Assembly (NCBI GenBank): GCA_951406725.2 | Contig: OX597830.1 | Span: 10,912,001 to 10,976,000 of the forward strand | Origin: Octopus vulgaris | Taxonomy: Eukaryota | DNA length: 64,000 nucleotides | Direction: 5' to 3' | Shown here: piece by piece, positions 5,321 to 51,165 of the stretch | How positions within the stretch are numbered: the stretch's first letter is position 1 | Layout: each line of letters opens with the position of its first letter | Notes under the pieces: generated by a model | The model's database searches: none | What the model saw: the letters and a program-made list of their open reading frames with translations, nothing else | What the model was told of the DNA's origin: nothing | Made by a program: the position numbers and the translations under genes

Positions 5321-5636
5321 CATCATCATCATCGTTTAACATCAATTCTCCTTGCTGGCATGGGTTGGACAGTTTGACTGAGGCCTGGAGAGCCAGCAGC
5401 TGCACTGGGCTCCAATCTGCTCTGGCAGAGTTTCTACAGCTGGATGCCCTTCTTAACAGTAACCACTCTGAGAGTGTAGTGGGTGCTTTTTACGTGTCAC
5501 TGGCATGGGGGACAGTCAGGCAGTACTGACATCAACCATATTCAAAAAGTGCTTTTTATGTGCCACTGGTACAGGAACCAGTCAGATGGTACTGGCATTG
5601 GCCACGTTCAGATGGCGCCTTTTACATGCCACCGGC
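5321..5636 (-). mobile_element. Family C SINE-like element
   Basis: (CAT)n tail then tttaac..gctggcatgggttggac..ctacagctggatgcccttc on the plus strand. Confidence 0.8.
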
Positions 5637-5940
5637 AAATTGCTACACAACCAGATCAATATCTCAACATCTTGCTCCATCTTTTAACACACTCACAACA
5701 AAATCTTCCACCTGTTCTCAAGACAGAAACAACATTTCCTAAAACTTAGGGCAGAATAGCAACCACATTAAAAACTGAAAAGCTACAGCTAGAACCTTGG
5801 TAAGAAGGTTCATGATGCAACTACATGGCTCTAAGTTCAATATTACTATGAGGCACCTTGGGAAAGCATCAACCCTGGGCCACCTAATGCCTTGTTAGTG
5901 AAATTTGGTAGACTGAAAGTATATAGAACATTGTGTGTGT

Positions 5941-5989
<49 letters not shown>

Positions 5990-6229
5990 AGTGTGTGTGT
6001 GTGTGAGTGTGTGTGTGTTTCATTTTGTTTCTTAATGTTCCATAACCTAGCAGTCTGACAACTGCAGATCACTATGAAATAAAGTAGCTGACTTGGATGA
6101 GTATAGGGGGGGAGCAGAATGATTGGCTGAAGATCTTCAAGGTGGTGCCTCCAGGATGGCTGTAGTCCAATGACTGAAACCAGGAAGAGTGCATATACAG
6201 AATGTACTCGTCTGGAGATGATCAGTGGT

Positions 6230-17352: not shown

Positions 17353-17876
17353 GAAAATAAAGTGAGATCACAGATGTAACCTATACCAGAGTCGCATAAC
17401 CAGCCAACTCAAAATCACAATCAAATGGAAATTGTAGTTGTGGTCCCCATGCTGGTGGCACGTAAAAAACACCATCCGAACAAAGTCGATGCCAGCCCCC
17501 TTACCACTATGTGGACACTCTTACGCTAGATATAGATCTGCAAAGGGACTCAACCACTAAGAATTGTTCTCAAGAAAAAATTTAGCACACTAAGAACGTA
17601 AGCGAGCAAGACAAATGAAAAATAACAAAAATATAGATTAACCCCATTCAATTGTATCACTGTTAATAAATTATGTAATTTTACTTACATAAATATCCTC
17701 AGATCATCAGTGGAGTACAGATCTATATCTAGCGTAAGAGCATCCACATAGTGGATTCTCTCTCATATTTGTGTATTAATAATATTTACTGAATCTCAGT
17801 CTTTTATACGCTAGGCCACTGGTGTTTAAATTGAAGTTATTAAATTAATATCCAATGTTTTCACCCTCATTTTGAC

Positions 17877-18612: not shown

Positions 18613-18911
18613 CATACATGTATATACATACATACATGTATATACATACATACATATATATATATATACATACATGTATATACATACATACATGTATATA
18701 CATACATACATGTATATACATACATACATGTATATACATACATACATGTATATACATACATACATGTATATACATACATACATGTATATACATACATACA
18801 TATATATACATACATACATATATATATAAACAATTGCAGCGTGGGAGGTGTTTATAAGCCATTTAAGAAACACACAAAAGCCGTTCGATTCACTCCAACA
18901 TTTGAGTTTAA

Positions 18912-18961
18912 TTTGTCAAAATATTTTCGTCGCTAAAATCCGCGACCTGTTCACTGACAAA
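18912..18961 (-). ncRNA. Minimal type-I hammerhead ribozyme fold, G3-C8 variant (mirror copy)
   Basis: Exact reverse complement of 18995-19044. Confidence 0.68.
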
Positions 18962-18994
18962 GTCCGTGCTGCATCTCAGAGATGCAGCACGGAC

Positions 18995-19044
18995 TTTGTC
19001 AGTGAACAGGTCGCGGATTTTAGCGACGAAAATATTTTGACAAA
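18995..19044 (+). ncRNA. Minimal type-I hammerhead ribozyme fold, G3-C8 variant
   Basis: Stem I UUUGUCA/UGACAAA; core GUGAACA plus an extra G; stem II GUCGC-GGAUUUUA-GCGAC; GAAA; self-complementary AAUAUU stem III; U17. Confidence 0.7.
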
Positions 19045-19381
19045 TTAAACTCAAATGTTGGAGTGAATCGAACGGCTTTTGTGTGTTTCTTAAATGGCTT
19101 ATAAACACCTCCCACGCTGCAATTGTTTTCGTTTCAGCACACGATCTCAGATCAAATTACTTGCTATGCGAGTACATCTCCATATATATATATATATATA
19201 CATATATATATACATATACATATATATATACACATATATATATATACATACATATATATATATACATATATATATACATACATATATATATACATACATA
19301 TATATATACATACATACATATATAGACATATATATATATACACACGCATATATATACACATATATATATACACACATATAT

Positions 19382-50959: not shown

Positions 50960-51165
50960 TCATTGGCAATTTTTACCTCCATCTTCCTCTTCTCTTGGAC
51001 TTTCCTCTGTCTCCTGTTTCTGAAGAAGAGCTTTGCTTGAAACGTAAAACCACCCTTCTTTCCTTCCCGAGCGTCTGCTAATACTTTACATATACCACAT
51101 CCTTGCATTGTTGTTTTTTCTTGTATTTTTCTTCATTTTTTTTTTTTAGATTAATTATATATAAA
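50960..51165 (+). mobile_element. Probable Penelope-like terminal-repeat remnant
   Basis: Pyrimidine-rich block containing a hammerhead fold and ending in (TA)n. Confidence 0.5.
51016..51050 (+). ncRNA. Minimal type-I hammerhead ribozyme fold
   Basis: GUUU-CUGAAGA-A-GAGC(UUU)GCUU-GAAA-CG-UA-AAAC: 4-bp stem I, stem II closed by G-U, palindromic ACGU stem III, GUA cleavage triplet. Confidence 0.62.

What the first reader, a model, noticed from the sequence alone, without database searches (positions are those of the whole stretch)
18995..19044. Cryptic hammerhead ribozyme with a swapped G3-C8 catalytic-core pair
Seen: UUUGUCA-GUGAACA-G-GUCGC(GGAUUUUA)GCGAC-GAAA-AUAUU-U-UGACAAA, with a perfect 7-bp stem I and 5-bp stem II around the core. 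The core reads G3-U-G-A-A-C8-A instead of C3-U-G-A-N-G8-A. Established: positions 3 and 8 form a Watson-Crick pair in the active hammerhead; an extra nucleotide after A9 occurs in natural hammerheads; Penelope-like elements carry minimal type-I hammerheads with a palindromic stem III (here AAUAUU) thought to act as dimers. Inference: the double change is compensatory, so this may be a functional ribozyme family that CUGANGA pattern searches miss. The predicted cut is after U19037, at a weak UUU triplet.
Basis: partly seen in the sequence, partly recalled or inferred. Interest (0 to 1): 0.88.

Follow-up and report, generated by a model that had tools for sequence, protein, structure and literature searches.

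The report
Swapped-core hammerhead in octopus retroelement
A jumping gene with thousands of copies in this genome, likely an octopus, carries a small hammerhead-type RNA motif in which two paired core letters are swapped relative to its sister family; it likely still cuts RNA slowly, but cutting is untested.

Summary
The motif is exactly as described. It occurs twice here, in the arms of a perfect 150-bp inverted repeat. It is the end piece (pseudo-LTR plus tail) of a young Penelope-like retroelement with RT and GIY-YIG domains; the genome has 8,616 pattern matches against 273 control. The sister family (58% protein identity) carries a hammerhead at the same place with C3-G8 and a covarying stem II. 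Relatives from other organisms show U3-A8 or C3-G8. So the G3-C8 swap is very likely a natural compensatory change in a Penelope minimal hammerhead. The swap is known as a partly active laboratory mutant; I found no natural report, but could not read the most relevant paper (Lünse 2017). Cleavage is untested. None of 77 copies starts at the predicted cut; most start just upstream of stem I, often with an extra G suggesting capped, uncut templates. This scan already noted the same swapped motif on other pieces of this genome, and similar motifs in other genomes. Verdict: new variant of a known kind, moderate interest.

The parts
18828..19181 (.). Whole insertion: two 5'-truncated end pieces of a Penelope-like retroelement (here F1), joined at their 5' ends in inverted orientation, inside (TA)n-type microsatellite
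   Evidence: 99% identity to the 3' end of element copy L036
18828..18977 (-). Inverted arm; ends at the shorter of the family's two common 3' ends (no tail)
18912..18961 (-). Second, identical hammerhead-like motif (G3 at 18954)
18979..19181 (+). Direct arm with tail (longer 3' end)
18979..18980 (+). Non-templated G (18979) before A18980, the commonest 5' boundary of short copies; inferred transcription start with a copied cap (rival reading: 3' splice site)
   Evidence: inference
18995..19044 (+). Type I minimal hammerhead motif with G3 (19002)-C8 (19007), extra nucleotide after A9, 5-bp stem II, palindromic stem III, U17; predicted cut 19037/19038
19094..19181 (+). Start codon and first 29 codons of the element's ORF (the tail is coding); homologous to the N-terminus of the sister family's 1,309-aa ORF

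Best explanation
The motif sits in the pseudo-LTR of a high-copy Penelope-like retroelement at the position where its sister family has a C3-G8 hammerhead, so it is very likely a minimal type I hammerhead whose 3-8 core pair has flipped to G3-C8, and it is predicted to cut after U19037 only slowly and only as a dimer or with help from the element's protein. Shown: element identity, position, copy number, covariation. Inferred: transcripts start about 15 nt before stem I, so the motif lies between the cap and the ORF start codon (19094). Inferred: most reverse-transcribed templates are uncut, so cutting is not needed to make a copy. The likely job is occasional processing: separating tandem read-through units through the palindromic stem III dimer, or removing the cap from element mRNA. 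This locus is a short, non-coding inverted pair; read-through of both arms would give a long hairpin instead of ribozymes.
For: Parent element: longer copies run into an RT + linker + GIY-YIG frame, and L036 has the motif on both sides of the ORF. Relatives hit Pfam RVT_1 (3 of 20) and GIY-YIG (2 of 20). F1 and F2 are sisters, SH-aLRT 99 in a quick tree of 31 proteins. F2 has C3-G8 with stem II differing by an A-U/G-C compensatory pair. Relatives: L112 U3-A8, L113 C3-G8, L115 C3-G8. On 9 aligned motifs 90.2% of cells pair against 70.2% shuffled, 13 of 16 pairs change on both sides, and pair 3-8 is Watson-Crick in 9 of 9. Among 63 sampled F1 copies, 8 variable sites fall in loop II (4) and the 3' flank (4), none in core or stems. 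The engineered C3G/G8C double mutant partly rescues a Penelope hammerhead (PMC11167929), and the G:C swap was the only rescuing double mutant in the CUGA region of a saturation screen (PMC9901934). The unit transcript folds both stems.
Against: No cleavage data; no raw RNA reads were available. 0 of 77 copies begin within 2 nt of the predicted cut. G3 can pair with U17 and extend stem I (P 0.60, 1.3 kcal/mol), a possible trap. The dimer is barely favoured over two monomers (-27.2 against -26.6 kcal/mol). Other core letters drift in this clade: A9 to C in young F2 and L112, U15.1-A16.1 in L113, and a broken core (G5 to A) in L282, so constraint on catalysis may be loose. Within F1 the core is only slightly more conserved than the flank (0.973 against 0.943). 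The 9 aligned rows are about 5 lineages, chosen because they had a motif, and G3-C8 is a single event. Pfam did not recognise the F1 protein itself.
Confidence: 0.7

Rival explanations
1. The motif descends from a hammerhead but no longer cuts; the fold is kept, or merely inherited, for another role such as a protein-binding or promoter element near the transcript start.
For: Uncut templates dominate. Core drift in relatives. G3-U17 trap and weak A-U dimer helix. Cleavage is dispensable for insertion in vitro in another Penelope element (PMC11167929). Naiad elements spread without canonical hammerheads (PMC8557442).
Against: A double transversion that restores a tertiary pair is hard to explain without selection on that pair; three different Watson-Crick pairs occur at 3-8 across lineages; the other catalytic letters are intact.
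Confidence: 0.25
2. The resemblance is chance within a repeat, and the high count only reflects amplification of one sequence.
For: The 8,616 matches are not independent; F1 and F2 end regions are barely alignable outside the motif (best local score 28, shuffled maximum 30).
Against: Same position relative to ORF end, tail and start codon in sister and more distant families; covariation far above shuffled and slid controls; 0 descriptor matches in 100 window shuffles.
Confidence: 0.03
3. The sharp 5' boundary of short copies is a 3' splice site rather than a transcription start, so the hammerhead begins an exon, as reported for D. virilis Penelope.
For: Long copies have a branch-point-like CTAAC, a pyrimidine run and YAG right at the boundary. 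D. virilis Penelope has an intron ending next to helix I (PMC4209133; PMC2377424).
Against: Only one extra letter (G) is shared upstream of the boundary, not an exon sequence, and the AG itself is retained.
Confidence: 0.25

Closest known systems
Minimal type I hammerheads in pseudo-LTRs of metazoan Penelope-like elements (Cervera and de la Pena 2014, PMC4209133; read main text parts 1-2 of 4 and supplement file 2 parts 1-2 of 3)
   Same: Type I layout, extra nucleotide after A9, G10.1-C11.1, palindromic stem III, position in both pLTRs, pairs on opposite strands, thousands of solo copies; U17 is common and the Crassostrea row has the same U-U-U cut triplet.
   Different: G3-C8: none of the 56 motifs of their Fig. 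S3 has G3 (53 C3-G8, 2 U3-A8, 1 U3-G8 by my count; their descriptor fixed the core). The extra letter is G where their consensus is H. Stem I is longer (7 bp) and copies are far more uniform.
Natural U3-A8 hammerheads (Perreault 2011, PMC3088659, passages; Schistosoma Cercyon elements, PMC4209133)
   Same: Natural compensatory change at the 3-8 pair.
   Different: U3-A8 needs two transitions and keeps pyrimidine-purine order; G3-C8 needs two transversions and reverses it.
Engineered C3G/G8C rescue mutants (Frangieh 2024, PMC11167929, parts 1-2 of 4; Roberts 2023 eLife, PMC9901934, passages; review PMC8495972, passage)
   Same: Identical swap, partly active; in the anole Poseidon element cleavage needs the protein and uncut RNA is the main template.
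   Different: Laboratory mutants, not natural. In that element the ORF starts inside the hammerhead; here it starts 50 nt after it.
Neptune/Nematis clades of EN+ Penelope-like elements (Craig 2021, PMC8557442, passages)
   Same: C-terminal GIY-YIG, CX2-5CxxC linker, (TA)n targets, inverted truncated partner, optional tail.
   Different: Clade not fixed: no named reference sequences were available for the tree.

Membership tests
Hammerhead ribozyme (type I, minimal) | Stems I and II around the core in type I order | tested here: met
Hammerhead ribozyme (type I, minimal) | Invariant core letters U4 G5 A6 A9 G12 A13 A14 A15.1 U16.1 and H17 | tested here: met
Hammerhead ribozyme (type I, minimal) | Consensus letters C3 and G8 | tested here: not met
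   G3 and C8; no Rfam hammerhead match. The literature treats the pair, not the letters, as the requirement.
Hammerhead ribozyme (type I, minimal) | Watson-Crick pair possible between 3 and 8, with covariation | tested here: met
   CG 5 rows, GC 3, UA 1, none unpaired (about 5 lineages)
Hammerhead ribozyme (type I, minimal) | Stem III, or a palindrome allowing a dimer | tested here: met
   6-nt self-complementary stretch 19031-19036; covaries; dimer energy marginal
Hammerhead ribozyme (type I, minimal) | Site-specific self-cleavage after H17 | not testable with these tools
   No assay; no raw RNA reads; the genomic proxy is negative
EN+ Penelope-like element | Single ORF with RT and C-terminal GIY-YIG | tested here: met
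   F1 itself has no Pfam hit, relatives do
EN+ Penelope-like element | Pseudo-LTR partial tandems, inverted truncated partner, optional tail | tested here: met
EN+ Penelope-like element | Hammerhead in the pseudo-LTR | tested here: met
Neptune or Nematis clade | CX2-5CxxC linker between RT and EN | tested here: met
   C-x3-C-x2-C in the L034 frame; definition
Neptune or Nematis clade | RT phylogeny with named references | not tested
   The tree holds no named clade references
Non-LTR retrozyme | Head-to-tail tandem units each with a hammerhead | tested here: not met
   This locus is an inverted pair; definition. L215 holds a short array on one strand, not followed up.

The most novel reading that the evidence does not exclude
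This is a naturally evolved, catalytically active G3-C8 hammerhead, fixed in about 8,000 retroelement copies, placed 15 nt behind the cap so that dimer- or protein-triggered cutting decaps the element's own mRNA as a switch between translation and copying; U17 would be the co-adaptation that avoids a G3-C17 trap. If so, descriptor and Rfam surveys miss a whole layer of ribozymes in elements now called hammerhead-less.
Probability: 0.25. Interest if true: 0.72.

Novelty: new variant of a known kind. Interest (0 to 1): 0.5.

Why it matters
It would be a natural instance of a core swap so far found by me only as a laboratory rescue mutant, giving evolutionary support for the 3-8 tertiary pair. 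Two sister elements in one genome, one C3-G8 and one G3-C8, form a ready natural experiment on the open question of what Penelope hammerheads do. It also shows that searches with a fixed CUGANGA core undercount ribozymes: under one descriptor, tuned to this family, the swapped form gives 8,616 matches and the canonical form 517. It does not reveal a new ribozyme class or new chemistry.

Tried and rejected
Rfam: nothing at gathering score; the weak miRNA and snoRNA matches come from the long palindrome. A C3-G8 intermediate inside F1: not found; 400 copies lack C8, and of the first 100 listed position 8 is T 47, G 35, A 18 and none has C3 (my count); the 15 G8 copies examined share no diagnostic changes. 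One search asked the same question with a mis-set pattern (14 matches) and was replaced. A second G3-C8 family with a 4-nt palindrome: 206 matches against 289 control. Viral contigs: 17 pattern matches, no relative. Metagenome contigs: 6 relatives, 3 with the 3' region. Genome contigs: 1 relative with a broken core, found after and not in that alignment. Expression: no RNA holder on record; contigs of 7 runs under four organism labels carry the stretch but cannot show ends, strand or level. Cap-G counts used loose filters and were replaced. An intact F1 ORF: none among the 5 copies translated from the start codon; a sixth lacked the start. The careful tree did not finish; the quick tree is cited. 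PDB sequence search gave only a weak RT match. Papers not held: Przybilski and Hammann 2007, Martick and Scott 2006, Lünse 2017, Nelson and Uhlenbeck 2008.

Full report
Observation. Rfam has no match at gathering score in the window and lists no hammerhead family at E<=10 around the site. A descriptor that accepts any Watson-Crick pair at 3-8 gives 0 matches in 100 window shuffles. The motif occurs twice, in the arms of a 150-bp, 100% inverted repeat (18828-18977 and 18979-19128) with one base between them, inside (TA)n-type microsatellite.

What it belongs to. A DNA search of the genome gave 1,401 candidates; the 40 scored are 99-100% identical over 191 nt. Longer copies run upstream through about 1.1 kb of UTR into an ORF end. 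L034 has a 654-aa open frame with the RT motif YVDD, a C-x3-C-x2-C linker and a GIY-YIG-like end. L036 has the motif before and after the ORF, the pseudo-LTR layout. F1 itself has no Pfam hit, but 187 relatives were found, and of 20 aligned members 3 hit RVT_1 and 2 hit GIY-YIG. The best relative (58%) carries an Octopus vulgaris source name and matches this genome at 100%, hence 'likely an octopus'. The tail is coding: the ATG at 19094 starts a frame homologous to the N-terminus of the sister family's 1,309-aa ORF. Full-length F1 copies are rare (47 candidates for the ORF's 5' part). Truncation, an inverted partner, an optional tail and (TA)n targets are described for Penelope-like elements in PMC8557442 (passages) and PMC11167929 (parts 1-2 of 4).

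Is the swap compensatory? A G3-C8 pattern has 8,616 matches against 273 reversed control; the same pattern with C3-G8 has 517 against 232. The sister family F2 (SH-aLRT 99, quick tree) has a C3-G8 motif at the same place in all 30 loci examined, with one compensatory A-U/G-C change in stem II. A pattern for this stem II with non-G at position 3 gives 6,010 matches against 4, mostly F2 among the 100 listed. Of the 4 relatives from other collections that include the 3' region, L112 has U3-A8, L113 and L115 have C3-G8, and L282 has a broken core. On 9 aligned motifs (3 F1, 3 F2, L112, L113, L115), 90.2% of cells pair against 70.2% in shuffles, 13 of 16 pairs change on both sides, slid controls drop to 24-50%, and 3-8 is paired in all rows. 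Caveats: the rows are about five lineages, I chose them because they had a motif, L282 is not included, and G3-C8 is one event. Within F1, 63 sampled copies vary at 8 sites, none in core or stems, but the core is only slightly more conserved than the flank. Copies lacking C8 (400) look like scattered later mutations, with no C3-G8 among the 100 listed.

How it likely works. From the literature: the swap partly rescues cleavage (PMC11167929; PMC9901934 passages; PMC8495972 passage); minimal Penelope hammerheads cut weakly and as dimers (PMC4209133; PMC6765202 passages); and in the anole element cutting needs the protein and is not needed for insertion. 42 begin 8-30 nt before G3, 24 are scored within the motif (some only through an alignment break at a subfamily indel), 9 begin further upstream, 2 downstream, and none within 2 nt of the cut. 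Of 35 free-ended copies that keep A18980, 23 have a G before it, where all 12 copies that continue upstream have T or C (pooled loci, and in 3 the G may come from an inverted arm). A copied cap is the simplest reading (recalled precedent from other retroelements, no call); a splice site is the rival. The order would then be cap, 15 nt, hammerhead, 50 nt, start codon, and the templates that get copied are mostly uncut. The unit RNA folds both stems (stem I 0.83-0.89 for its six inner pairs, stem II 1.0), but read-through of both arms at this locus forms a hairpin of -284 kcal/mol that removes them. G3 can wobble with U17. PMC3884650 (passages) says a G3-C8 variant is more active with G17 than with C17, so U17 may matter here; that is inference. 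That U-U-U is a poor cut triplet is recalled, not checked.

Against activity. No assay and no raw RNA reads. The dimer is barely favoured. The clade tolerates A9 to C, a reversed 15.1-16.1 pair and one broken core.

Novelty. Natural U3-A8 is published (PMC3088659 passages; PMC4209133). None of the 56 motifs in Fig. S3 of PMC4209133 has G3. Full-text searches for a natural G3-C8 found only engineered cases (broader listings). Passages of PMC10085705, PMC6155905, PMC7761336 and PMC13282606, and part 1 of 5 of bioRxiv 2026.07.22.740005, showed none. Lünse 2017, the most likely place for an earlier report, was not held; Arkhipova 2017 was not read; supplement file 1 of PMC4209133 and the preprint's supplements could not be seen. 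A search of earlier scan notes by sequence found nothing; by words it returned 8 of 9 notes on swapped-core motifs, four from this genome and four from others. I read them after my analysis; they agree and are not independent support.

Verdict. Real, hammerhead-derived, in a known setting, with a natural core swap that I could not find in print. Hammerhead ancestry about 0.95; cleavage-competent under some condition about 0.6. New variant of a known kind; interest 0.5.

Noticed in passing
window 51013-51053 (+): A second, fully canonical C3-G8 minimal hammerhead descriptor match (4-bp stems I and II, 4-nt palindrome, A17), probably the end of another Penelope-like family.
   Followed up: partly
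L066:4646-4690 and 29 other F2 loci: The young sister family, which has many intact ORFs, has A9 changed to C and a mismatch in the centre of its stem III palindrome; older copies (L094-L099) keep A9.
   Followed up: partly
L112:2497-2535; L113:4973-5015: Relatives with other core variants: U3-A8 together with C9 (L112); U15.1-A16.1 with a matching palindrome (L113).
   Followed up: partly
L036:4697-4721: A branch-point-like CTAAC, pyrimidine run and YAG lie right at the common 5' boundary of short copies; start site or splice acceptor is unresolved.
   Followed up: partly
L215:99-1442: An array of 8 end pieces of the same family on one strand (seven of about 147 nt, one of 75 nt), next to further copies; retrozyme-like or satellite-like.
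   Followed up: no
L113:500-2400 and 5600-6055: A related element has a long ORF with an Ala/Thr/Asn/Ser repeat region and an inserted segment that looks like a cysteine-protease domain (impression from the sequence, untested), arranged in tandem.
   Followed up: no
L282: A Penelope-like element with a broken hammerhead lies on a contig of a bacterial MAG; probably host contamination.
   Followed up: no
L262-L281: 5' ends of F2 copies are more spread than in F1; 14 of 27 fall 48-74 nt before C3.
   Followed up: partly
window 17560-17740: Another inverted repeat by eye (ends near 17505-17560 and 17700-17760 look complementary), possibly a small foldback element; not analysed.
   Followed up: no
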